A stretch of DNA of 64,000 nucleotides from Chiloscyllium plagiosum. Taxonomy: Eukaryota. The translations under genes were made by a program, and so were the position numbers. The notes below the pieces were generated by a model that was not told where the DNA came from, made no database searches, and worked only from the letters and a program-made list of their open reading frames with translations. The stretch lies in the NCBI RefSeq assembly GCF_004010195.1, contig NC_057746.1:11134881-11198880 (forward strand), given 5' to 3'. Every line of letters begins with the position of its first letter. The stretch's first letter is position 1. Below, one piece after another: positions 20,645 to 42,080 of the stretch.

Positions 20645-21943
20645 GAGAAGATTTGTAGCTCAGGTGCTCGTTGTTGTGGTTCTGTTCGCCGAGCTGGGAA
20701 TTTGTGTTGCAGACGTTTCGTCCCCTGTCTAGGTGGCATCCTCTGTACTTGGGAGCCGCCTGTGAAGCGCTTCTGTGATCTTTCCTCGGGAATTTATAGT
20801 GGTTTGTCTCTGCCACTTCCGATTGTCAGTTCCAGCTCTCCGTTGCAGTGGTCGGTATATTGGGTCCAGGTCGATGTGCTTATTGATTGAATCTGAGGAT
20901 GAGTGCCATGCCTCGAGGCATCCCCTAGCTGTTCTCTGTTTGGCTTGTCCTAAAATAGTAGTGGTGTCCCAGTCGAACTCATGTTGCTTGTCATCTGCGT
21001 GTGTGGCTACTAAGGATAGCTGGTCGTGTCGTTTCGTGGCTAACTGGTGTTCATGGATGCGGATCGTTAGTTGTCTTCCGGTTTGTCCTATGTAGTGTTT
21101 TACCGCAAACAGTCTTACCGCAAACTCTGGGTCAGATATGTGGATGACACCTTTGTAATCATTAAGAACACACACCGGATCATCAACGCCACACTCACAG
21201 GAATCCGATTCACTAGAAAGGAAGAAAAGGATAACCAACTCCCATTCCTAGACGTGTTGGTACAGAGAACATCTAACGGAGAATTCACCACAAAGGTATA
21301 CAGGAAGTCCACACATACAGACCAAGTCCTGAACCACGAAAGCAACCACCCCAACACACACAAAAGAAGTTGCATCAAGACACTGTTCAAAAGAGTCACA
21401 ACACACTGCAGTACACCAGAACTGCAAAAAGTGGAAGAAGAACACATATACAATGTATTCACCAAAAATGGATACCCGCGCAATTTCACGAACAGATGCC
21501 TAAGGGAAAGTCAACGGAACGAGGACATGCCGCAACCCAAAGGACTAGCCACACTAACATACATCAAGAGCATTTCTGAACTGACAGCCAGACTACTGCG
21601 ACCACTAGGACTCATAACAGCACACAAACCAACAGCCACTCTCAGACAACAACTCACCAGAACGAAGGACCCGCTACCCAGCATGTGCAAAACCAATGTA
21701 GTGTACAAAATCCATGCAAGGACTGCGGAAAACACTACATTGGACATACAGGAACACAGCTAACCATCCGCAACCATGAACACCAATTAGCCACGAAACG
21801 ACACGACCAGCTATCTTTAGTAGCCACACACGCAGATGACAAGCAACATGAGTTCAACTGGGACAACACTAAGGATGTCACCTAGACAGAGGACGAAACG
21901 TCTATAACATAAATTCCCAGCTCAGCGAACAGAACCACAACAA
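20645..21943. mobile_element. Penelope-like element (second family), inverted 5'-truncated structure inside CR1 ORF1
   Basis: Minus-strand GIY-YIG/3' end 20645-~21100 (HYIGQTGRQLTIRIHEHQ...LEAWHS) joined to plus-strand RT C-terminus and GIY-YIG (LWVRYVDDTFV, VYRKSTHTDQVL, NVVYKI); both ends finish in the same pseudo-LTR with a degenerate hammerhead (...ggatgtcacctagacag.ggacgaaacgtc). Confidence 0.9.
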
Positions 21944-26618: not shown

Positions 26619-27529
26619 TGCTGTGGAGAGATCACCTGAAACTCTGAGAGAAGTACCAAAAGGCACAGAAAATTCTTCATGAAGTTAGATATTTATTTGC
26701 AAACAAAAGCTGTGAACGAGAAAATGTCTTCTCTGTCTGCCCACACATTCCTGGGGCCCCTTCTGTTTATAATTTTCTCGTTCCCGCACTTATCTGGTGT
26801 TATTAGCATAACCAATCATACTAGCTTGCTTTAACCTTCCAAACTAATCATCTTCGGCCACACCCGTTTGCTACTTATTTTTTTTTAAATTAGGTTACTT
26901 ACAGTGTGGAAGCAGGCCCTTCGGCCCAACAAGTCCACACCGACCCGCCGAAGCGCAACCCACCCAGACCCATTCGCCTACATTTATCCTTTCACCTAAC
27001 ACTACGGCCAATTCACCTAACCTGCACATTTTTGGACTTCGGGAGAAAGCAGGAGTCCCTGGAGGAAACCCACGCAGAATGTGCAAACGCAACACAGTCA
27101 TTCGCCTGAGGTGGGAATTGAATCTGGGTCTCTAGCGTTGTGAAGCAGCAGGGCTAACCAATATGCCAGCCACTTGCACTTCAGCCACCACATTACACCA
27201 CCATCATATTTAGCATGAGCTCATCTATCACCTGATTTGACTAGCCTGTCATAGTCAGAGTCATAAAGTCATAGAGATGTACAGCATTCAACAGACCATT
27301 CGGTCCAACCTGTCCATGCCGACCAGATATCCGAACCTAATCTCGTCCCACCTGTCAGCACCCAACCCATACTCCTCCAAACCCTTCCTATTCATATACC
27401 TATCCACACTTTGTTAACATTATATTTAGCATGAGCTCATCTACTGCTCATCTATAACATGATCCTATATATGCATTGCTCCGCTAGGTTAACGCTAGGA
27501 CTGCCAAAGTAACTACCATATCTTCTGTA
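26619..27529 (-). repeat. ERV 3' LTR, interrupted by an HE1 SINE (~26890-27170) and a CR1-type 3' tail (~27250-27408)
   Basis: Homology to 33640-34095 on both sides of the insertions; polypurine tract adjacent at 27530-27541. Confidence 0.82.
26890..27170 (-). mobile_element. HE1-type SINE inside the ERV 3' LTR
   Basis: Same family sequence; LTR homology resumes after it. Confidence 0.85.
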
Positions 27530-27849
27530 TTACCCCTTTTAGACATACTTGTCTCACACAGAACAAGAATACAACGAGCTGGGCGGACAAAGGCCACATC
27601 GGTAGCAGTTGACCAGAGCAAAGAAGCTTCCAGGGTCCAGTTCACAAAGGATTCTCTCTCTCCATTCCAGTAGTCATTGAACCAAAAACCCGTCCCGTAA
27701 TAGTTAGAACAGGAAACGAAAATACCCAAGGACCGCACACAATCTAAGTATGCAGTCAACGCATTTCAAGCCGGATTCAATCTTCGTCCAGACACGGCTT
27801 CGGCACTTCAGCAGAGAGCAGATCATAGGAATAGAGCATTAGCACCTTG

Positions 27850-28900
27850 GTGGAAGAGAGGAATGGTTCCGGAGTTCGACAGAACAACGGGCAATTTATG
27901 CATAGTAAGACACACTAATAATGACTTAATAAGAGTTATTACACAGAAAAATATAAATGCAACAATAATCAGAATGATGCCTATAAAACTCCCAAACATG
28001 GCGAACCAAACCCACCAATTCAGCCAAAGCGTTATCCAATCAGCGAGAAAAACCGATGGTCAGACCCTACATTCTCATTTAGCTCCTGCATAAGATTACT
28101 TAGCTTATCCTTTACCTTATTAAATGATCCTTCCGGGAGAGTATTATTGGATATGATAGTACAGCAATGCTCCCTGAACAGTGCACTGACACCACCTCTC
28201 TCAGCCTGTCCAAGGCCTGCGTATTTGTCATGCCATTTTGCTGGTAGCATCCAACTGCTCACCTAATGCTGAAAGGGCATCATCGGTGTAATTAATAAAT
28301 CTCTGCTGGTTGCAATAGACGTAAATTATAATTCAAAATTTTTGCTGACACCGATGACAGGGTTAAGTTCTCCCAGACCACTGTAATTTCATTTCGGGCC
28401 TTGAATTCACTGGGGACGCTTCTGGGCTGACCTATACCATCAATTTCTCTGGCTGGATCAGGGATGTACTCATGTTTAGGTCGGTGCAAAATCGGTGGTG
28501 TTAAGGCGTCAGACCAGTCCTGTGGTGACACAACAAGGTGCATCACATGGGTGCAGACACCATCCTGGCCAGTGGGAAACGTCAGATGCAGTCCCCCTTT
28601 AACGGACACAACCACTAAGTATTTGCGAAGAGAACTTGCTGAGACTTCATAATAAACTAATGGTGCAGCGTACTGGCACCAAAATTTCTCACAGTCTCAA
28701 CATCAAGCGTGATCCCACAAGGGGCTTCAAAGTGGCCAACATTGGATACACAGATCCGCCAGGTCTTCCAAATTGATGGTCCCAAAGTCTGTAGAGGAGT
28801 AGAAATGTTCAGGACTGAGGAGGGGGGCATTAGTGGCTTCTCTAACCCCTCCCCAGCCATACACACAGCAGAAAAATCTCCTTTCACAGACCCATTCTGA
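27850..28900 (-). pseudogene. env: ERV env remnant (gamma-type TM)
   Basis: IDGIGQPRSVPSEFKARNEI (fish-ERV TM N-terminus pattern), AERGGVSALFREHCCTIISNN (end of immunosuppressive domain plus degenerate CX6CC, first Cys->Ser), then a hydrophobic anchor FAMFGSFIGIILIIVAFIFFCV near 27930-28005. Confidence 0.85.
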
Positions 28901-29049
28901 TATGCCCGGCGGCAGTAGTATCCCTGAAGACCTCACTCACCAATTGATCAAAGTCACGTGAAAATGTATCAATTCCTAGCGCATCCAGTTCAGTCACCCC
29001 TGCCTTTTCTTCACCCCCACTTGCATCAGCTCTGGAGTCCATCTGCGTC

Positions 29050-32000
29050 TGCAGGACAGCACTGGTGCAATAAATGAGATGATACCATGTGGATCGTCCG
29101 TCCACTTGAATAGCAGTGGGCGATGCCTTGGTTACCCTGAAGGGTTCCACTCTTCTCGGCTCATTTCACTTTCTCCCGAAAACTCGTATATGCACCTGAT
29201 CTCCGGGTTAAAAGTAACCTCTTCTTTGCTACACAATGGCTCAGTCAGTTTTCCCAGTGTGTGGATGGACTCATATATCATAGTTAGCTGCTGCTTTACT
29301 GCGTATCTCCTAGCTCCAAAAAGCTAGGTCCATCATATGGGCTGCTCCACATGTACAATGGCATGGGGCTAGCAGTAAGTATTGCGTGCGGCGTCCAGTT
29401 CGTCATGCAGTTAGTCTGCATAAAGTAGCTCATCAGTGCAAATGGCAGCACGTCCGCCCATTTAAGATTGGCACTTGCAAAAATTTTATTCAACTTGGCT
29501 TTTAAATTTCCATTAAACCGTTCCTCCATACCTTGCAACTGGGAATGATACACACATCCAAATCTCTGTTTGATGCTCAAAGTCTGCAGCAGCAACTTAG
29601 CCACGCTTTGGATAAAAACAGGCTCCTTTTTCTGAACTGATCTCTGATGGCATGCCAACCTTTCGAATAATTTCACTTGTTAAGAATCTATCTACTAAAC
29701 CAGTCGATTTCCACGAACATATGTCTTTTCCTTCTCACTGTCTTTATCATGTCCACATAGTCGATCATGAAATGCTGAAATGGTCCCTCAGGTATTGGCA
29801 TGTGTCCTATAGGGGTCGCTATCCCCTTTCTGATAGTATTTTGAACACAAACATCGCACTATGGCAATATGTAATCCACTGAGACCTGCACGTAAGGTGA
29901 CCAGATTCCCTCCTTCATTATCCTCCCCAGTACTTCCGCTCCAGCAGAGTGATCCAAACAATATGCCTCTGCGATGAGAATGGTCCAGAAAGGGGTAGGC
30001 GCCAATCACAAACCCTCCTCTGTGTACCAAAGGCCATCTTGGTTTTGATTGGCTCCCCTTTGTCCCCACAGTATTTGTTCAGCTAACGTTGCCTTAGCTC
30101 GCATCTCAATGACATCTGGTTTTATAGGCTCGGTTCCAAACGCACCTGGAGCGCAATTGCAGCTGAAATTCATCCAGTGGCCATTCTAGCCGCTTTCTTT
30201 GCTGCCTGATTACCCTTAACCACTAAATCATTGCTTTTTTGTGTGTTGGGCACTTTATAATAGCTAGCGCTATGGCCTCACTAATGCAGTCGTCAACTCT
30301 GCAATATGGTGGCAATGTTGTTTGGAATGTCCGTTGCTCTTCCTTCAGCCTCTTTGCTTTCAGACCGCCCCAAGTAAATGGCAGACACCCATGCGCATAA
30401 GTTTAATCAGTACTGATATCCGCCTTCTCATCTTCCATCAACACGCATGCTGTTGTTAATGCCTTAAGCTCAGCTAGCTGTGCTCAACAGGTTGTGGACA
30501 GGCCTCCAATTTGACCATCCTACACTGAGACTGTTCTTGCTGCACTATTGCAAACCATGCATGACCCCCGTCTTAATCCTTGTAACTACTAAGAATACAA
30601 TTTTTTGTCCTCACCAGGCAGCGCTTCAGACTGTAAATGAGCGAGCATCGTCACCTCTCTTATGCAATTATGCGTCTCTGACTCATGTTCTAGTGGAACA
30701 TAGGCTGCTATGTTCCTTGTGGCGCATCTCTGCGAGGGTATGTGTGGAAATGTCAATAACATTGAAATGCTATTATCCTGGCAGGCGTCAACCAACATTG
30801 CCCTTTTTCTAACAATTCTGCCACCTTACAGTACAAGATTACAGGATAGTGTATCATTATGGAATATATCCTGTTAGATGCAAAGTGAACCGCCACCAGC
30901 CCCTTGTAATAAGGTGGATATACTTGAGCAACTTCATCCAATTAAAAGCAACAAGCTGCCTGGCTCTCCCTACGCCCGTCTCTTGCTCATGGACCGTGGC
31001 AGCATGCACTTCCTGGGCGTTTGACACCTAAAGGTGAAAACATTTTTCATAGTTACACATGGGGAGGTCAGGATCGACTGCAATGCCTGCTTACCAGTGT
31101 TGAAAGCTGCTGAAGCGTCCTCATTCCAATGCAGTGCACTCTTCAAACATGCATGTCCTGCCTCCTTTTTAAATTCGTCAGGGAAACCATAATTTTGGCG
31201 CATTCCCCAATCCTGTCTGAACTAAATCCTGCCATCCCAAAAACGTCGTCATTTTTGCAACTGTCTCAGGCCTTGGAAGCTCGAGGCGTTGCCTCAATCT
31301 GATCAGGCGGTCTCAACTTAAGCCCCTTAGAAAGCAGTCTGCTGAAATGCTCGACCTGCTGCTTGTAGAAGTGTAGCTTCTGCCATCGACACTTTGTGAC
31401 CTCCATATGCTAACCTTTCTGGAAGTTATATGATTTGCATTGCCTTTGATTTTCTGAACTAACTAACAAATCATCAACATATTGGATTAGTGGACTTTCC
31501 AACGGTATACTCTCCAAATCTATAATCAACACCGGATTAAATACATGCGGAGAGTGCCTAAAACTCGAGACATTTGAGTATAAGTGTGCTGCCTTCTCTT
31601 CTACATAGAAGGAACCTAATATTGACATTGCTCTGCCAGTGGAACACTAAAAAATGCTGAACACAAATCAGTCACTGAAACGTCAATCATGCACCAGATT
31701 CCATTTCAGTTTAGTCGTGTTTGGGACAGGATTCTGCGGAGTTTGACAGGGAGTGCACATTTCACTGAGCACTCATGCTTCCAGCAGTCCCTATATTGTT
31801 GCTGCTATTCCTTCCTCTGCTTCTGGTTCCAAGGGGCATTGTGGTCTTCTCACTGGATTTGCTCCCTGTTTTAATGTTATTTCCATTGTATTTGCTGACT
31901 TCACTCTCCCCGCATCATTGTCATGCTCTGACCATAAAATAACCGGCAACGAATCCTATTATTCTTTATCGTGGTGGTCTCTGCCTCCAGCTATCGTTAG

Positions 32001-32860
32001 CATACTCCGTTGCGAAGTCACCTCAACCTCCATTGGGTTCCCCACCGTGTCAAAACGAACTTCAACTCTAACAGTCACTCTTTCCAGATTTCCAGACCCC
32101 GGGTGCCGTCATTTGCTAGTCACTAATCGATTCTGCCTGCTTTACCATAGGTCCCACATAATTGAACTGTTGTACCTCATTTACGAGCAACGACACATGG
32201 TGCACGGCTCCTGACACATTGTATAATTTTTCTAGAAAATCATTGTTTCTTATCTGCCACGCTGCTCCCTACTTTCCAAATATGATAGCTTCGTTCTTTA
32301 AATGCTGTGGGTTGACAACTTAAAACTACCATGGTTTTGGAATATTTTATCTCAGTCTCGTCAAGTATCACTGTGAAATGCAGCTGAAACTTGGGTGGCT
32401 TAGCTTCAGTCAGTAATGCTAAAACATCTTTTCTCCATTTCCCCAAAACTCCCAAATGTAACAGTCTTGTCTCCTATACAATATTCATTGGCGTTCCTGG
32501 CTTTCTGCAATACCACCTGAGAACTCGCCCTTTCTGAACTTAACCACTTTTGGGTATATTCCAATTTCAATTCTAATTTCAGCAAGGTGTCTCTACTTAG
32601 CAAATTAATCGATGTCCACTTGTAGACTAATAAAGGCAAGACGACATTTTAGCATCCATTTGTATTCTTACTGGAGATGCAAACCTTGTCAACTGTGGTT
32701 TATCCGAGAACCCTACAGTATTAATAAATTTTCCTCACCTGGGAATGTGGTATTTGTATTACGGTTGGACGCAAGTGTAAGTAGCTCCAGTATCTATCAT
32801 CATAGGTGTCAACCGTCCTTCTAAAATAACCTATACAATGGGTGCCTGTTCAGCCTCCTG
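29050..32860 (-). pseudogene. pol: ERV pro-pol (protease, 2H phosphoesterase-like insert, RT, RNase H, integrase), many stops and frameshifts
   Basis: MMIDTGATYTC (32783-32794) and INLLSRD (protease); DLCSAFFSVPL, FRHSPHVF and LIQYVDDLLV (31470-31481) (RT); ELKALTTAC...ISTD (RNase H); QGMEERFNGNLKAKLNK, WADVLPFALM, PFRVTKASPTAIQVDGRSTWYH (integrase core and GPY/F region). Confidence 0.92.
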
Positions 32861-32869
32861 TGTTATCAT

Positions 32870-33470
32870 AGGGTAGTGCCCCTTCCTATTCGGGTTCTCT
32901 GGACTCCCCAGCAGAATCTGTGCTGGTTGGCAGTCCCTAAAGGACCCATATGCATTTGTGGCGGGACATCCAGATTTTGCTGGTGCAAAGGTTCACCCTG
33001 GGGCTGTGAGTGCCAGGTCCAATATGGGCAACCCCTGTGAAAATGACCTGGTTGATAACATCGCCCACACACTATTTTTCAGACTCTGACTTGTCACCAT
33101 ACCCTTTGTCTTACTCAATCAAACCCAGCACAATCAATCCGCGAATTGTCCACAACATTCTTCAGGCGGGATCGGTACATTATCTCTCTAAATTTCGAAA
33201 TCCCCACTACGTTAATTTGCCGTGCCTTCAAATCCCCATAGTCAGCAACAGTCCTGTGGTTTCTGTCTTCAAAGTGTCTAATCCACTTTACTGCTTCCTC
33301 GTGTAAGCTGTGCAGCACATTTTTCAGCCCTTCTAGATCCTGGGTTCCACAATTTATTCCAGCTTCCCGCCAAACTTCAATTTAACATCCTTCTTTTGTT
33401 TTTTGGAAAGACCTTTCGGCAGTTTCCCTGCACTTCTGCCTTCTTGAGTACCTCCCATACTTGACAGAAC
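32870..33470 (-). pseudogene. gag: ERV gag remnant (capsid C-terminus and nucleocapsid)
   Basis: CGRCYQPGHFHRGCP = CX2CX4HX4C knuckle near 33025-33070, preceded by EAVKWIRHFED; only ~0.6 kb, so most of gag appears deleted. Confidence 0.75.
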
Positions 33471-33617
33471 ATAGTCCAACTTAGCAGTAATATGTTTACC
33501 TTCCTTTGTGGGAGTCCAGCCCTTATTCTTCCAATCTCAGGAGTGTCCCCAGTAAAACTGGAGAGTGCCCTGCAGGTTCCGTCCCTTTTTGGTAGGTAGA
33601 TGAGTCGTCTCTTTCTG

Positions 33618-33635
33618 AACCTGCCCGCTGCGCCA
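33618..33635 (-). promoter_or_regulatory. Primer binding site, tRNA-Ser(UGA)-type
   Basis: Minus strand TGGCGCAGCGGGCAGGTT, 4 nt after the LTR; 16/18 match to the complement of the vertebrate tRNA-Ser(UGA) 3' end as I recall it (TGGCGCAGCGAGCAGGGT). Confidence 0.75.
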
Positions 33636-33639
33636 AGTC

Positions 33640-34095
33640 TTTTGTGAAAAGATCTCCCGATACTCTGAGAGAATTATCAGGAGAAGCAGAATATCCTTCA
33701 CGTAGGTACACTTTCACTCGCAAATAAAAGCTATGGCAGTCAGAAAATGTTTTCTTTGTCGGCCCACATTGTTGTGGCCCTTTCTGTTTATACTTTTCTA
33801 CTTCCCAAGCTCTCTGGTGTCATTGCCATAACAAATCATAGTAGCTTGCTTTGTCCTTCTAAATGAATCATCTTATGCAATACTAGTCTGCTACGTACAT
33901 ATAACCTGTCACATTACACCACCGAAATCCTACTCATTCGCTCAACTGTCACTTGATTTGACTCGCTTATCATTGTGTACTACCGCTGTTTTCAGCATTA
34001 ATTCATCCATTGCTCATCTCTTACATGATCCTATGCATGCATTGCTACATTAAGTTAAGTATAGTACAACCAAAGTATCTGCCATTTATTACCCA
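33640..34095 (-). repeat. ERV 5' LTR
   Basis: Aligns by eye along its length with 26619-27529 and 17597-18023 (shared blocks such as actctgagagaa, agaaaatgt, tagcttgcttt, acatgatcctat); PBS immediately adjacent. Confidence 0.85.
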
Positions 34096-36541
34096 AGAAT
34101 CGTGTGGTCATAAATATTGTTTCAAAATCGCAAGAATGTGCCAGCAGACGGGATGGTGGTTTGAAATGTGTCTACTTCAACGCCAGGAGCATCTGGAATA
34201 AGCTGGGTGAAATTGATGCATTCCTCGGTACACGCGACTTCGATGTAGTGGCCACATTGGAGACATGGATAGAGCAGGGACAGGATTGGCTGTTGTAGGT
34301 TCTAATGTTTAGATGTTTCATTAAGAACAGAAAAGGTATCAAAAGAGGGTGAGGTGTGGCATTATTTGTCAACGACAGTATTATGGTGACAGAAAGGACA
34401 CTTGATGCGGACTTGTCTACTGAGGTAGAATGGGCAGACGGTAGAAACTGGAGGGGAGAGGTGACATTGTTGTGAAAAGTTCCAGAGATGTCGAGGACCG
34501 ATTTCAAAGATGATCCTGGAAATGAGGGAAAGTAACAGGGTCGTTGTCATGGGTCCTTCAATTTTCCGAATAGTGACTAAAAATGTTGCAGCTTGAGAAT
34601 TCTAGATTGGCCATCTTTTTTCCAATATGCGCAGAAAGGCTTCCTGACACAGTGTATAGATAGACCAACAAGATAGATGTGCACTTTGGAGTTGTTACTG
34701 TGTAATGAACGAGGCAGGTGTTAAACTTGGAGGAAAGTGAGCACTTTGGTGATAGTGACCACAATTCGGATATGTTTATTTCAGCGATAGAAATTGACAG
34801 GGAAATACCTCAGAGCAAGATTTATAGCTGGGGCAAAGACAATTAGGATGCGATTAGACAAAAATTAGGATGCAGAGGATGGGGAAGAAAACGGCAGAGG
34901 ATGGGAACAATTGTAATGTGGAGCTTGTTCAAGATCAGCGACCACGTGTCCTTGATAATTATATACCTGTCAGGTAGGCGGAAGTGGTCGAGCAAGAGAG
35001 CCGTTGTTTAGTAAAGAACTTGAATCGTTGGTCAAGTGGACGAAGCAGGCTTATGTAATGTTGAGACGTGTAGGCTCAGTTAGGGTGATTGTGTTACAGG
35101 TTAGTCAGGAACGTCCTAAAAATAATAGTAATAAATGGCCAGGGGGGATACAAGAAGTCATAAAATCATAGAGTCATAGACATGTACAGCATGGAAACAG
35201 ATCCTTCAGTCTCACCCGTCCATGCTGACCAGATATCCCAACCCAATCTAGTCCCACCTGTCAGTACGCGGCCCATATCCCTTCAAACCCGTCCAAGGAT
35301 CAGGAAATCCCTCAAGCTTTCTGCAGGTATGTCAGCAATAAATAAATAACCAGAGTAACGTTAGGGCCAGTCAAAAACCGTATTGCAAAGCTGTGCATGG
35401 ACTCTGAGGAGATAGGAGTGGCGCTAAGTCAATATTTAGTGTCAGTATTCACACTGGAAAAAAATGTTGACGAGAATACCGAGATAAAGGCGACTGGACT
35501 AGGAGGAATTGCTGTTCATAAGAAGGAAACGTTAGCAATTCTGGAAAGCGTGAAATTTTGTAAGTCGCCTGGGCCAGATGGGATTCATCCTCGGATTCTC
35601 TGAAAGTTCAGAATAAGATTGCAGAAACTTTGGCTTTGAGCTTTATGCCGTCATTGTCTACAGGAATAGTTCCAAAAGATAGAGGATAGAAAATGGTAGC
35701 CCCTTGTTCAAGAATGACAGACAGCATTTATAATCATCAAGAAAGGGAATAATTCCATTGGGGATGGGCAACACCGTTTTGTGAAATGTAGATCTTGCCT
35801 CACAAACGTTATTCAGTTATATGACAAGGTCACTAAACAGTGAATGGGGGTGAAGCGTTTGATGTGGTGTCGATGGATTTCAGTAAGTCATTTGATAAAT
35901 TTCCCCACGGTAGGCTCTTGCAGAAAATACGGAGCCATGGAATTGAGGGTTTTTTTTTAGCCGTTTGAATCAGAAATTGGTTAGTCGAAGGAACACAGAG
36001 GTCGATGTTGATCGAAAATGTTCATCCTTGTGTACTCTTGGTGTACCACAAGGACCTGATGTGGGCCCACTTCTTTTGCATTTAAATGACCTGAATGAGG
36101 GCGTAGAAGGATGGGTTAGTAAGGTCAGTGGAGTTGTGGACAGGGTCGAATGTTGTTGCTGGTTACAGATTAACATAGATAAGCTACAAAGCAGGGCAAA
36201 GTGGCGGCAAATTGAGTTTAATGCGCTATAGTATGAGTTTTATCACTTTGGATGGAGTACAAGGAATATGAAGTACTGGCTTCATGATGTTTCTGGGTCG
36301 TGTAGATTAGCAGACAGATTAGATTAGACTCCATTCAGTATGGAACGGGCCCTTCTGCCCTACAAGTCCACATTGCCCCTCCGAAGGGTAAGCTACCGAC
36401 ACCCATTCACCTACCCTATATTTACCTCTGACGAATGCAGCTAACCGTATTGGTCAGGTAAATTGTGCATGGCCAATTTACCTGACCAATACATCTTTGG
36501 ATTGTGGGAGGAAACTGGAGCACCCGTAGGATAGCACCTGC

Positions 36542-37921: not shown

Positions 37922-40344
37922 TGTTATGAAGCTGTAGAGGTGACTGTACCTTTAAGATATTTGAACAGCTTGCAAGGGCAAAGCACAGATAGCCCAGAAC
38001 AAGGTTAAAAAAAAGTCACACGTGGTCGAAACAAATAACTGCGAATGGGTTGCCATGAAACAAAAACCAAATTAAAATTGGCCAAACGGTTTAAATTATG
38101 CCCCAGAAAACCAAAATCTAATCATTTTCAATTTAGTGTGCATTAACATTAATACTTAACAAATTATCCGGTATTTCGGAGTATAAAACCGGACCGGTTT
38201 AGTAGTAGTCAGGGATGAACAACCAAAGACCAACAAATGTAGACTGCTTCTTGAAGAACTCTCTGAAAGGTTCTTGTCTGTTGTCAGTTTGCATAGCAGG
38301 CCGACCTGAAGAGAATCGAATAAACAAGACAATCGGCAAAGCTGACCGGTTTTGAATCGTGGTTATCCCATTTTTTGTAAGTCTTAATCGGGATTTCTTT
38401 ATCAGATTAGTATTGAAGAGTGGCAGGTAAAAGATAGGTTTAGTAGAAAAAAAGTTCGAAATGGTTGTTGGTTTTAGTATTCTCCATTGGATTTGAAGAA
38501 CAATGTTGTTTATTTTTATTTTAAATAGAGACGTCTGTGATTGTTTTTGCCTCTGGAATTTTAACAGACTATTGAGTGAGTTTTTTTTCTGTTGAAATTA
38601 GCAGAAGGGTTTACCCTGTGTCATAACAGTTTTGGGATTTCGTCCACAATATGAACTGGTTTCAACAGATCCAGCCTGAAACATGGAGAGATTCGAATAG
38701 ATTTGGGATACTATACCGCCCAGTATACTTAGACATGGGCAGGTTAATGTCCTAGATCTTTAGATAAAACATGGGTAAGACAATTTGTTTAATTTCGGTG
38801 ACTTGTGGTTGGTTAAATTAAAAGTGAGAGAAATGTCTGCTCAAATTGAGAAAGAGGTTTTGAGATTTGAAGATGATTCTCAAATTTGCCAAAACGTTTA
38901 GAAGGAAAGAAAAAAGCCACAATTTTATAATTAACAAGGAAGTTAAATTTGGGTTTAACCAAGGACAGAAGGAAACCTGAAATTGTAAGCGTGGTACTCA
39001 AACACTTGGGTTTATCAGAGAAACTAGATGTAGAAAACCTTAAAATACAATTGATAAAATGGAGTCTGAAGAGAAGGAAAGGAAGTCAGAAAGAGAAAGA
39101 CAGAGAGAAGAAAGAGAAAGAGAGAGAGAGGAAATTAGAGGGAGAGTGAGAGAAAGAGACAGTTCTTAGCTGAGCAAAGGGAGGAAGAAGCCGGGGACAG
39201 AGGAAGAGACAGGGGAAAAATAAAGATAGAGAAGGTTCTGAGCTGATGAACAAAGAAGAAAAAGATTTTGAAGTTGACAAATTGAGACTTAGCAAAGTCA
39301 ACTTGACAGTTTGGAGATTAAAAGGGTAAGTAGCGATATATATATATAAATACGTCAAAACCCTGTTGCATTTTGATGACAAAGATACTGAGGTCTTATT
39401 TATTTTATGTGAAGAATTGGCTCGGCAGATGGAGTTGAGGATCCAAAATTTGAATTTATGCTGTTGTCAGAAGCAACAAGTATGTTTAGGTTTGTATCAA
39501 CCACAAAATGGCTTTTCAATTTAAAATGACACATCAACATGGTACAACTAATGATTTGACGCTGTGAACTTGAACTGATGTTTTGCTAAGTTGGTTGTAT
39601 TTAGAGATAAGAGAAAACAATGGAGTTTTCATAATATAAATCATAAGACAGTCATTCCGTATTCGAAATAACTTTGAACTGCTGCCATGAAATGACGATT
39701 TATGAAATTAAGACTCCTTTCTCAGGGAATATAATTGGTTAGCCTGCTGTCAATTATGTCACCTTATTACATTTTATTGGTCTTTTCTAGTAAATAAGGC
39801 TGTACAGTCTCTTATAAAACAAATTAAAATTGTGCAATTTTTGAATGTAATTATACCATTTTCCCACAGAACGCAGGAGCATTTGACCTCCCTGTTGCTG
39901 GATAAATCTGCGCCAGGCTGCATCAATTTATTAAACTGATAAACTTGCTTTAAACAGACCGTACTCCTCGTGATTCTTTTCACCGATCTCGAACCAAGAA
40001 ACCTTTTTGGAGGGGTCCAGATCTTCAGAGTTGCCCGAAGATTTATGGGTAATGCGAATTCAGACTAAACTGGTAGGCGGCGCCAGTGAGGTAATGCCAT
40101 ACGCTGTTTATAACTGATTGTGTCGGAACCTCCCGAGAACTGAAAGGGTGAAGCAGCAATTGTTAACGAGAATGGATGTGTCTATCATATGTGTGGAGGC
40201 AATTCCATTATGGAGTATCAAGGCAAAAATAGTGTGTGAGGTGTTAGTAGTTTTCTTCAGATGGTCTGAGCTACCCAGAGAGTTTCAGTCAGACCAAGGT
40301 TCAGATTTTACTGCTCGGCTCTTGAAGGAGGTTAAGGATTCAAA
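37922..40344 (+). mobile_element. Gypsy/Gmr1-like LTR retrotransposon relic (5' LTR, gag fragment, integrase fragment)
   Basis: LTR 37922-38628 with perfect 8-bp inverted ends TGTTATGA/TCATAACA; degenerate tRNA-Pro-like PBS at 38633-38650 (12/18); K/E/R-rich gag then HFDDKDTEVLF...LARQME[insert]LPEDLWVMRIQTKLVG; integrase LLTRMDVS...EAIPL...FQSDQGSDFTA at ~40110-40340. Confidence 0.78.
39436..40027. mobile_element. Solo LTR (592 bp) inserted in the Gypsy gag
   Basis: Ends TGAGGATC...GATCTTCA (7/8 inverted repeat, TG..CA); 4-bp TSD GAGT at 39432-39435 and 40028-40031; removal restores the gag reading M-E-L-P-E. Confidence 0.8.
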
Positions 40345-42080
40345 GTTCGGGAGAAGATTTGTAGCTCGGGTGCTCGTTGTTGTGGTTCTGTTCACCGAGC
40401 TGGGAATTTGTGTTGCAGACGTTTCGTCCCCTGTCTAGGTGACATTCTCAGTGCTTGGAAGCCTCCTGTGAAGCGCTTCTTGATGTTTCCTCCGGCATTT
40501 ATAGTGATTTGTATCTGCTGCTTCCGGTTGTCAATTCCAGCTGTCCGCTGCAGTGGCTGTTATATTGGGTCCAGGTAGATGTGCTTATTGATTGAATCTG
40601 TGGATGAGTGCCATGCCTCTAGGAATTCTCTGGCTGTTCTCTGTTTGGCTTGTCCGATAACAGTAGTGTTGTCCCAGTCGAAATCATGTTGATTGTCATC
40701 TGAGTGTGTGGCTACTAAGAACAGCTGGCCATGTCTTTTTGTAGCTAGCTGGTGTTCATGTATCCTGGTGGCTAACTTTCTTCCTGTTTGTCCTACGTAG
40801 TGTCTGTGGCAGTCCTTGCATGGAATTTTATAGATGACGTTGGTTTTGTCCATGGGTTATACTGGGTCTTTTAAGTTTGTTAGTTTTTGTTTGAGAGTGT
40901 TGGTGGGTTTGTGTGCTGCGAGGATTCCGAGGGGTCTCAGTAGTCTGGCTGTCATTTCTGAAACTACACCCTAAACCTCAACCTGAGTTACAAAACTTCA
41001 CAAACCTTGCGAAAACCTATGGCCGCAACACGCTATAACTGGCCCGAAGATGGGAAAGAAATGCCATCCGAGAGAGTTCCACCCGCGAACAACTGTACTT
41101 CCTGCATGGATGTTTAAGAAAACAGGTACTGCCAAAATGTCTCCAATATAAACCGCTGAAAAAAACACCTCAAGACAGAAATTTAACAGAACAAAACGGC
41201 CGCAGAATGCTCCAAGAACTAATCAGTGACGCCCACCACAGACTCCGAAAATACAACCGGGAAATTGTGCGCCAAAAACTGTTATTCAAACAAGCAACAA
41301 ATCAAGAATGGACAGACGCGGTAGAACAAGCCATAAACACCAAACAACGACAAACGTAGATAAAGAAAAATCGGGATCTGAAGAAAAAACTTGACAAACT
41401 CACAAAAAAAGACAAAACCGATAATTCAGAGTCATGGATAAAGAACCAATCAGACCGGACCCTATCAGACACAAAAAAAGTGGTACTAGTCAAAGGATTA
41501 AATTTCAATTACCGAGATGCTGACAAGAAGGATTTCCGAGCGGAATTAAAAACCACATTGAAGGACAACAATCTCACGGAAGAAACACAACAAACTATCA
41601 GACAGACAGTTGCACCTACTCTCAGCCGAAAAAGGGAAGGAAACAAACTGAACACACAAGAAAAGAAAGCCCTCGAGAACCTCAAAAAAGTCAAAAACAT
41701 CGTTATATTACCTGCTGACAAAGGTTGGATCACAGTCATCCTGAACAGAAGGGACGACATAGAGAAAGACAATTCACTACTCGCAGACACCAACACCTAC
41801 CAAAAGGTGGCGCTAGACTCGACCCCACAACTAGGAAACAAAATTACATATCTCCTAAGAAAATTACACAATTCCGGACAATTAAACAAGACGGAATTCC
41901 AGAAAATGAAACCCGACGGGACCAACACCCCACGATTCTACGGACTACCAAAAATCCATAATCCAGGAGGCCCCCTCAGACCTATAAGGAGAAAGTGAGG
42001 TCTGCAGATGCTGGAGATCAAAGTTGAAACTTTATTGCTGGAACAGCACAGCAGGTCAGGCAGCATCCAGGGAACAGGAG

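What the first reader, a model, noticed from the sequence alone, without database searches (positions are those of the whole stretch)
32100..32500. Shark ERV with a 2H-phosphoesterase-like domain between protease and RT
Seen: ~0.5 kb of extra coding-like sequence separates the protease end (INLLSRD) from the RT start. On the minus strand it contains FQLHFTVILD (H-F-T, 32372-32380) and, ~60 codons later, GAVHHVSLLVNE...VGPMVK (H-V-S, 32191-32199). Established: paired H-hydrophobic-[ST]-hydrophobic motifs define the 2H superfamily (CNPase, LigT, coronavirus NS2 and rotavirus VP3 2-5A phosphodiesterases), and such a domain is known in the pol of some fish class I retroviruses. Inference: this elasmobranch lineage carried the same accessory enzyme, possibly for tRNA primer end healing or for degrading antiviral oligonucleotide messengers. 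It is split over two frames and not obvious from the ORF track.
Basis: partly seen in the sequence, partly recalled or inferred. Interest (0 to 1): 0.75.

Follow-up and report, generated by a model that had tools for sequence, protein, structure and literature searches.

The report
CNPase-like enzyme domain in shark retrovirus
A dead endogenous retrovirus carries, between its protease and reverse transcriptase, a broken copy of a conserved two-histidine enzyme domain predicted to fold like the host enzyme CNPase, which likely opened cyclic-phosphate RNA ends; such domains are already reported from bony-fish retroviruses.

Summary
Both motifs sit at the stated coordinates inside a ~516-nt insert between protease and RT of a decayed, LTR-bounded class I provirus (~26,620-34,095, minus strand). 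The motif pair alone is chance-level (6 such pairs in the window), but a profile of sibling copies hits the stretch at E 1.5e-23 and 8e-7. The His-x-Thr pairs are near-invariant in three ERV lineages of this genome, in a stingray ERV and in a pike ERV. Fold searches rank vertebrate CNPase first (Z 6.0-6.5 on a weak model; TM 0.78 for the pike homologue). The 2-5A phosphodiesterases NS2, VP3 and AKAP7 rank lower. In younger lineages the domain is as constrained as RT (dN/dS 0.18 vs 0.23). This copy is dead: three frames, four stops. Best reading: a Pol-encoded 2',3'-cyclic phosphodiesterase for RNA ends; 2-5A degradation is less likely. No activity was tested. The arrangement is known from teleost retroviruses; cartilaginous fish extend the host range. 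This scan found it before on other DNA, including this genome. A side result: an RT-deleted non-autonomous family keeps gag-PR-2H.

The parts
33643..34095 (-). 5' LTR (outer edge approximate)
   Evidence: Three blocks align with the 3' LTR at 75-77% identity; K2P 0.27 over 412 sites
33618..33635 (-). PBS-like 18-mer starting TGG, 7 nt after the LTR end; tRNA not identified
   Evidence: Sequence read directly; tRNA match not tested
32990..33380 (-). gag remnants (capsid-like piece, zinc knuckle); much shorter than in sibling elements
   Evidence: Weak zf-CCHC_2 hit, E 0.13; siblings hold ~1.8 kb and ~0.7 kb more in this region
32517..32908 (-). Retroviral protease, broken (DTG at ~32794, INLLSRD 32609-32589)
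   Evidence: tblastn to stingray P0001 and sibling L042, 52-65% identity, 3 stops, one frame change; the sibling frame is Pfam RVP at E 1.3e-11
32001..32516 (-). CNPase-like 2H phosphoesterase domain, pseudogenised; three frames, four stops
   Evidence: fold evidence from a sibling copy and the pike homologue
32372..32380 (-). First 2H motif H-F-T (H-C-T in most copies of this lineage and in host CNP)
32191..32199 (-). Second 2H motif H-V-S (H-V-T in most relatives, H-V-S in pike)
30300..32000 (-). Reverse transcriptase / RNase H region, broken (YVDD 31481-31470); far edge approximate
   Evidence: (RVT_1 E 0.028); the family's RT start is closest to MLV RT among solved structures
29010..30080 (-). 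Integrase, broken (N-terminal edge approximate)
   Evidence: tblastn to the integrase part of a sibling, which carries Pfam rve and MLVIN_C hits
27800..28900 (-). env remnant (TM-like cysteine motif and hydrophobic stretch read by eye)
   Evidence: Shared with sibling elements at 64-75%; no Pfam hit; the env label rests on position and recalled motifs
26622..27540 (-). Polypurine tract (27540-27533) and 3' LTR, interrupted by inserted repeats
   Evidence: no target-site duplication recognisable

Best explanation
This is a decayed copy of a two-histidine (2H) phosphoesterase domain in the Pol of an old class I (epsilon-like) fish retrovirus, predicted to fold like CNPase and likely to have hydrolysed 2',3'-cyclic phosphate RNA ends to 3'-OH/2'-phosphate. 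Shown: position between PR and RT; an amber stop at the gag border in relatives; conservation of both motifs across three lineages, a stingray and a pike; purifying selection in the younger lineages; matching main splits in the RT and 2H trees. Predicted: CNPase fold. Inferred: made as part of Gag-Pol by readthrough and so packed into virions; in this lineage probably cut free by the viral protease (conserved S/TQ-LVL and QRSM-P borders); there it would open cyclic-phosphate ends on packaged RNA (tRNA primer, nicked genome), leaving a 3'-OH. This window's copy is inactive. Odds: CNPase-type 2H domain ~0.95; 2',3'-cyclic phosphodiesterase chemistry ~0.65; RNA end healing as the role ~0.4.
For: Motifs in 56 single-frame segments: first His 55 of 56, its Thr 56 of 56, second His 53 of 56, its Thr 51 of 56. 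These were top-scoring hits, so the counts lean high. The near-invariant columns across lineages only 20-28% identical are H46, T48, W98, H107, L110, G122, P123. VIA search of 48,161 chains with a sibling model: CNPase first (Z 6.0, rmsd 4.3, 144 aligned), next row Z 3.7; 16 of 21 rows are 2H proteins by title or recall. The Foldseek PDB list is headed by CNPase, though E 0.17; the second look gives CNPase/RICH in rows 1-37 (Z 5.5-6.5). Atlas model of the pike homologue: TM 0.78 over 155 residues to chordate CNPase, and feature score 0.95 to tRNA-ligase CPD. Ungapped offsets match the host's own CNP: aromatic at His1+5 (53 of 56; Phe235 in CNPase) and Gly at His2+15 (56 of 56), followed by a predicted helix. 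PMC4643303 and PMC5283653 (passages) call that helix unique to CNPase. Lineage C aligns to the host CNP exon over motif 2 at 48%, pairwise E 1e-4. dN/dS in lineage B: 2H 0.18 (0.13-0.25), RT 0.23, PR 0.34; lineage C 0.38 (0.23-0.62). Trees: the window's lineage plus stingray splits from pike/B/C with 100% bootstrap in both RT and 2H. TAG at the gag border in 10 of the 13 A2 copies where the border was matched, of 18 examined.
Against: No activity was measured. My model is weak (pLDDT 56, pTM 0.48; below 50 at 111-123, just before the key helix), Z is under 8, and no PDB Foldseek hit has E below 0.001. Pfam CNPase finds only the host gene, no ERV. Other 2H Pfam hits are all under cut-off (E 0.03-0.2). 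The profile scores host CNP exon pieces barely above shuffles (2 of 217, 7 of 222 and 108 of 167 scored shuffles reach the score), and hhalign probability is 3%. Two CNPase substrate residues differ: no Arg at the Arg307 position (0 of 56), and Lys/Arg at the Val321 position (56 of 56), so specificity may have shifted. No retrovirus is known (my recall) to need end healing, and most lack the domain. In the RT-less family the domain is no more constrained than its flanks (0.66 vs 0.75 and 0.62). The cleavage borders are read by resemblance and are not evident in lineages B and C.
Confidence: 0.6

Rival explanations
1. Immune antagonist: the domain degrades a nucleotide messenger (2-5A, as coronavirus NS2 and rotavirus VP3 do, or cGAMP, as phage Acb1-like enzymes do).
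For: Other viral 2H enzymes do this (PMC9503650 passage). The host has an OAS gene cluster (15 exon matches, most on one contig). Weak Pfam Acb1 hits (E 0.067 and 0.14). A basic residue replaces CNPase Val321 in 56 of 56 segments.
Against: NS2, VP3, AKAP7/18 and Acb1 score Z 2.6-3.6 against 6.0 for CNPase. The 2-5A binding side is blocked by helix alpha7 in CNPase (PMC5283653), and the viral domain keeps that spacing and a predicted helix. The only KEN-domain genes found in the host are IRE1-like; no RNase L was found (exon-wise search, weak negative). Pol is made at low level, late, and is packaged (established for readthrough retroviruses), a poor place for a cytosolic antagonist.
Confidence: 0.17
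2. It clears cyclic-phosphate RNA fragments or free 2',3'-cNMPs made by host stress or antiviral nucleases in the producer cell. Same chemistry as the best reading, but to dampen sensing and not to repair viral RNA.
For: Same fold evidence. Host CNP is described as interferon-stimulated (abstract of PMC3832489 in a search listing). Nidoviral 2H domains sit beside nucleases that make such ends (PMC9503650).
Against: Location in Pol implies low abundance and packaging. No data here on substrate or place of action.
Confidence: 0.13
3. A non-catalytic role: an RNA- or Gag-binding module, or a decoy for host CNP, which blocks lentivirus assembly by binding Gag.
For: Host CNP binds Gag and inhibits HIV assembly (passage in PMC5434554). 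An RT-less family kept gag-PR-2H while spreading.
Against: The catalytic His and Thr are the best-kept columns across lineages 20-28% identical, which points to catalysis. The RT-less family shows no extra constraint on the domain.
Confidence: 0.07
4. Chance motifs in a decayed spacer.
For: Six motif pairs at that spacing occur in the window. No Pfam hit for the window's own pieces.
Against: Profile hits at E 1.5e-23 and 8e-7 at exactly this place, cross-lineage conservation, fold match, purifying selection.
Confidence: 0.01

Closest known systems
CNPase-encoding epsilon-like ERVs of ray-finned fish (Basta et al. 2009, not held; as summarised in PMC4977317, passage read) and 2H domains of fish retroviruses such as walleye dermal sarcoma virus (Mazumder et al. 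2002, not held; as cited in PMC9503650, passage read)
   Same: A CNPase-like 2H domain in a class I fish retrovirus. A pike ERV protein has the homologous domain directly before RT. [quoted passage not shown]
   Different: The host is a cartilaginous fish. This lineage is only ~25% identical to the pike domain, has H-C-T in motif 1 like host CNP, groups with stingray ERVs, and has cleavage-like borders on both sides. The passages I could read do not give the domain's position in pol.
Vertebrate CNPase / fish RICH catalytic domain (PDB 2xmi, 1woj, 2ilx, 2i3e; Pfam PF05881)
   Same: Top fold match. Both motifs; aromatic at His1+5; Trp before the loop leading to motif 2; Gly at His2+15 followed by a helix; similar order of elements.
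   Different: About 170 against 210-235 residues; 5-18% identity in structural alignments; not detected by PF05881; no N-terminal PNK-like domain; no Arg307 equivalent; Lys/Arg in place of Val321.
tRNA-ligase cyclic phosphodiesterase domains (Pfam PF08302; fungal Trl1 CPD and phage/protist relatives)
   Same: Best feature match (0.95) and TM 0.58-0.66 for the pike homologue; compact size; RNA end-healing chemistry.
   Different: No kinase or ligase partner in the provirus; lower TM than CNPase.
Viral 2',5'-phosphodiesterases (MHV NS2, rotavirus VP3 C-terminal domain) and AKAP7/18
   Same: 2H fold and motifs; virus-encoded.
   Different: Lower fold scores (Z 2.7-3.6); they bind substrate on the side that CNPase's helix blocks.

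Membership tests
2H phosphoesterase superfamily | Two H-x-[ST]-hydrophobic motifs | tested here: met
   Window HFTV and HVSL; His 55 of 56 and 53 of 56 in relatives; definition in PMC5434554
2H phosphoesterase superfamily | 2H fold with each motif at the start of a strand | tested here: met
   Sibling model: strands 45-51 and 106-112 carry H46 and H107; 16 of 21 VIA rows are 2H; pike homologue TM 0.78 to CNPase. Tested on relatives, not on the broken window copy.
2H phosphoesterase superfamily | Phosphoesterase activity | not testable with these tools
   Needs an enzyme assay; the window copy is broken
CNPase clade | Helix alpha7 after the second motif | tested here: inconclusive
   Helix 124-129 predicted after an invariant Gly at the same offset as in host CNP, but pLDDT there is about 47-56
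CNPase clade | Substrate-stacking aromatic at His1+5 (Phe235) | tested here: met
   F/Y in 53 of 56 segments; Leu in the window copy
CNPase clade | Arg307 and Val321 | tested here: not met
   No Arg at His2-2 (0 of 56); K/R at His2+12 (56 of 56)
CNPase clade | Pfam PF05881 score above cut-off | tested here: not met
   No hit for any ERV segment; so filed as CNPase-like, not as a CNPase orthologue
CNPase clade | N-terminal PNK-like domain | tested here: not met
   The insert is ~172 codons and abuts the protease
Viral 2',5'-PDE (NS2/VP3/AKAP7) | Closest fold neighbour within the AKAP7/NS2/VP3 group | tested here: not met
   Listed at Z 2.7-3.6, below CNPase at 6.0; the Atlas ranks CNPase first
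Viral 2',5'-PDE (NS2/VP3/AKAP7) | Cleavage of 2-5A | not testable with these tools
   Needs an assay
Class I (gamma/epsilon-like) ERV | LTR-gag-pro-pol-env-LTR order with an MLV-like RT | tested here: met
   env labelled by position and recalled motifs only
Class I (gamma/epsilon-like) ERV | Amber stop between gag and pro (readthrough) | tested here: met
   TAG in 10 of 13 matched A2 copies, of 18 examined; not clear in the window copy itself
Epsilonretrovirus proper | RT tree placement with WDSV/WEHV | not tested
   No reference epsilonretrovirus sequence was returned by the tools; the trees hold only this genome, stingray and pike

The most novel reading that the evidence does not exclude
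An ancestral retrovirus of jawed fishes captured the catalytic domain of CNP once, fixed it in Pol and kept it in shark, ray and teleost lineages as a virion-packaged, protease-released RNA end-repair enzyme: a fourth catalytic activity beside PR, RT/RNase H and IN that rescues primers or genomes cut by host nucleases, with a basic residue at the Val321 position retuning it for RNA-linked ends.
Probability: 0.25. Interest if true: 0.7.

Novelty: new member of a known kind. Interest (0 to 1): 0.33.

Why it matters
The domain has been noted in fish retroviruses since 2002-2009, but I found no functional test of it. This work shows it in at least three ERV lineages of one cartilaginous-fish genome and in a ray, travelling with RT and under RT-level constraint. 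That argues for an old, needed Pol function, not a stray capture. If it heals RNA ends, it would be an unrecognised retroviral enzyme and a handle on the open question of CNPase's natural substrate. This particular copy adds little: it is dead and decayed.

Tried and rejected
Pfam on the window's own pieces: nothing for the domain. Single-sequence homologue searches with a sibling frame: none; only the profile found 4 proteins among 7,993 scored. PDB sequence searches: no 2H hit. Single-sequence fold: pLDDT 35, discarded. Atlas feature search with a stingray protein: scores 0.76-0.77, uninformative. The viral-contig scan could not be seeded. The 1.84-billion-protein representative search never ran, so the range beyond shark, ray and pike (amphibians, reptiles, WDSV) is untested. 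The lineage C 2H dN/dS of 1.00 came from a query in the wrong frame; it was redone (0.38; core only 0.30). Between-lineage dS is saturated, so no ratio is given. Rows dropped before the 56-segment counts: 7 of 30 loci (partial match), 3 of 30 (short contigs), 1 of 7 (degenerate). Dating: LTR K2P is 0.27, but no reliable rate is known (the rate assumed in PMC4422223 would give an impossible age) and no target-site duplication was found, so no age is given. RNase L was not found in the host; this is a weak negative. The position of a Tyr168 equivalent is ambiguous and was not counted as evidence. The 430-bp repeat pair at 20645 and 40351 is not this element's LTR pair. Papers not held: Basta 2009, Mazumder 2002, Paul 2006, Shen and Steiner 2004.

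Full report
OBSERVATION. They lie in a provirus bounded by LTRs at about 33643-34095 and 26622-27533 (75-77% identical in three blocks, K2P 0.27), with a TGG-initiated PBS-like sequence, a polypurine tract, and broken gag, pro, pol and env. Mapping natural relatives onto the window shows the insert running from about 32516 to 32001. It is spread over three frames, with frame changes near 32460, 32350 and 32072 and four stops in the frame of motif 2. The copy cannot make the protein.

CHANCE. Pfam gives nothing for the window's pieces. A profile of 25 natural segments that leaves out the window's rows hits the stretch at E 1.5e-23 (32346-32074) and 8.2e-7 (32449-32351), and nothing else below E 0.44.

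THE FAMILY. A DNA search of the own genome gave 42 matches (40 of 187 candidates scored). Among its 30 loci, 15 show H-C-T at motif 1 and 9 show H-x-T/S at motif 2; the rest are changed, frameshifted or do not reach the motif. Across lineages only 20-28% identical, the near-invariant columns are H46, T48, W98, H107, L110, G122 and P123. In 56 single-frame segments the two His are kept in 55 and 53, the two Thr in 56 and 51. These were top hits (23 of 30 loci, 27 of 30, 6 of 7), so the counts lean high.

FOLD. A natural sibling segment folded with a 39-row alignment gave a modest model (pLDDT 56, pTM 0.48). Foldseek on PDB found nothing at E below 0.001, but CNPase headed the list. VIA-align over 48,161 chains put CNPase first (Z 6.0, rmsd 4.3, 144 aligned), then ASCC1 3.7, MHV NS2 3.6, LigT 3.4, AKAP18 3.2, rotavirus VP3 3.1 and Acb1 2.6; 16 of 21 rows are 2H proteins by title or recall. 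The tool warns that Z under 8 can be unspecific; what carries weight is that the list is almost all one superfamily. The second look gave CNPase/RICH in rows 1-37. Independently, the Atlas model of the pike homologue (pLDDT 0.73) matches chordate CNPase at TM 0.78 over 155 residues and tRNA-ligase CPD domains by features at 0.95. The one significant viral fold hit is Q2VF30 (E 9.8e-5), unnamed by the tool and recalled by me as a salmon retrovirus polyprotein.

RELATION TO CNPASE. The host's CNP gene was found as three exon matches; the same Pfam model finds no ERV. Set side by side without gaps, the viral and host sequences share H-C-T in lineage A, an aromatic five residues after His1 (53 of 56; Phe235, needed for substrate binding according to PMC4643303, passages) and a Gly fifteen residues after His2 (56 of 56), after which the model has a helix (124-129, low confidence). 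That helix (alpha7) is described as unique to CNPase among 2H enzymes and as blocking the side where 2-5A binds in NS2/VP3-type enzymes (PMC4643303 and PMC5283653, passages). Against simple identity: Arg307 has no counterpart, Val321 is Lys/Arg in 56 of 56, and sequence similarity to host CNP is marginal (pairwise E 1e-4 for lineage C; hhalign 3%; shuffle test). I file it as CNPase-like, not as a CNPase orthologue; capture from CNP is likely but not shown.

SELECTION AND HISTORY. Pairwise dN/dS in lineage B is 0.18 (0.13-0.25; 27 copies) for the domain, 0.23 for the RT start (20) and 0.34 for the upstream protease region (24). Lineage C gives 0.38 (6 copies; the value 1.00 was a frame error). 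The older A sub-families give 0.66, as expected when post-insertion drift dominates. RT and 2H trees agree on the main split: lineage A plus stingray against pike, B and C, 100% bootstrap in both. The pike-B pairing is resolved only in the RT tree, and the 2H tree carries a long-branch warning (unrooted, 26 and 29 rows). This fits inheritance of the domain with Pol rather than repeated captures, but no outgroup was available.

HOW IT WOULD WORK. Relatives have TAG at the gag border (10 of 13 matched A2 copies, of 18 examined), so the domain would be made by readthrough as part of Gag-Pol and packaged (established for gamma/epsilon-type viruses; inferred here). In lineage A both borders are conserved (S/TQ-LVL/M upstream, QRSM-P downstream) and resemble retroviral protease sites (recalled), so it was probably released as a ~170-residue protein. 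CNPase-type chemistry turns a 2',3'-cyclic phosphate into a 2'-phosphate with a free 3'-OH. The simplest use in a particle is to reopen blocked ends on tRNA primers or nicked RNA. I put the fold at ~0.95, the chemistry at ~0.65 and this role at ~0.4. The immune-messenger rival is not excluded: the host has OAS genes. But no RNase L was found (weak negative), and the fold neighbours point away from it.

WHAT IS KNOWN. PMC4977317 (passages) says some epsilon-like ERVs of ray-finned fish encode a CNPase (citing Basta 2009); its section on cartilaginous fish does not mention one. PMC9503650 (passages) lists 2H domains in fish retroviruses, including walleye dermal sarcoma virus (citing Mazumder 2002). 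The two primary papers were not held. Han 2015 on elephant shark ERVs (PMC4422223; first 10,000 of 14,366 characters read; whole-text term search; supplements not viewed) has no mention of a phosphodiesterase. Nine searches turned up no report for sharks or rays and no functional test, but the library lacks most subscription papers, and I read only listings for most hits. Earlier notes of this scan describe the same domain in this genome and in four findings from other genomes; they agree but are not evidence.

VERDICT. Real, correctly interpreted at the family level, a new member of a known kind. The host-range extension, the RT-level constraint and the RT-less sister family are modest additions. 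The open question is the enzyme's substrate, which an assay on an isolated natural domain can settle. Interest 0.33.

Noticed in passing
L039-L060, L101-L106 (own genome): A non-autonomous, LTR-bounded sister family (LTR pairs 85-96% identical in 5 of 6 fetched elements) keeps gag, the amber stop, protease, the 2H domain and env remnants. It joins the RT start in frame to the integrase core, lacking ~2.2 kb (window 31861 to ~29690). The same junction motif occurs in 11 of 18 copies, so it spread in this form. No extra constraint on its 2H domain.
   Followed up: partly
L061-L096 (own genome): Two further, younger 2H-bearing ERV lineages. One is 53% (2H) and 62% (RT start) identical to a pike ERV, closer than to the window's lineage, which hints at movement between teleost and cartilaginous hosts.
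   Followed up: partly
L009, L017, L026, L027: A small sub-group shares H-V-K in place of H-V-T in motif 2: a probably inactivating change present in several near-identical copies.
   Followed up: no
P0003 (stingray XP_059848893.1): A database protein named 'E3 ubiquitin-protein ligase Siah1 isoform X1' is in fact ERV protease plus 2H plus RT start: a likely misannotation or a chimeric gene model.
   Followed up: no
G000 C25 ~15.32-15.38 Mb; L107, L108: The host has a cluster of OAS genes, but the only KEN-domain genes found are IRE1-like.
   Followed up: partly
window 20645-21075 and 40351-40780: Two copies (85-94%) of a repeat that reads by eye as a Penelope/GIY-YIG retroelement fragment (recalled motif); not LTRs of this provirus.
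   Followed up: partly
window 38931-39524 (+): Broken frames that resemble an LTR-retrotransposon gag start by eye; no Pfam support.
   Followed up: partly
window 26890-27415: The 3' LTR is interrupted by short repeats; one also occurs at 35196-35294 (82%).
   Followed up: no
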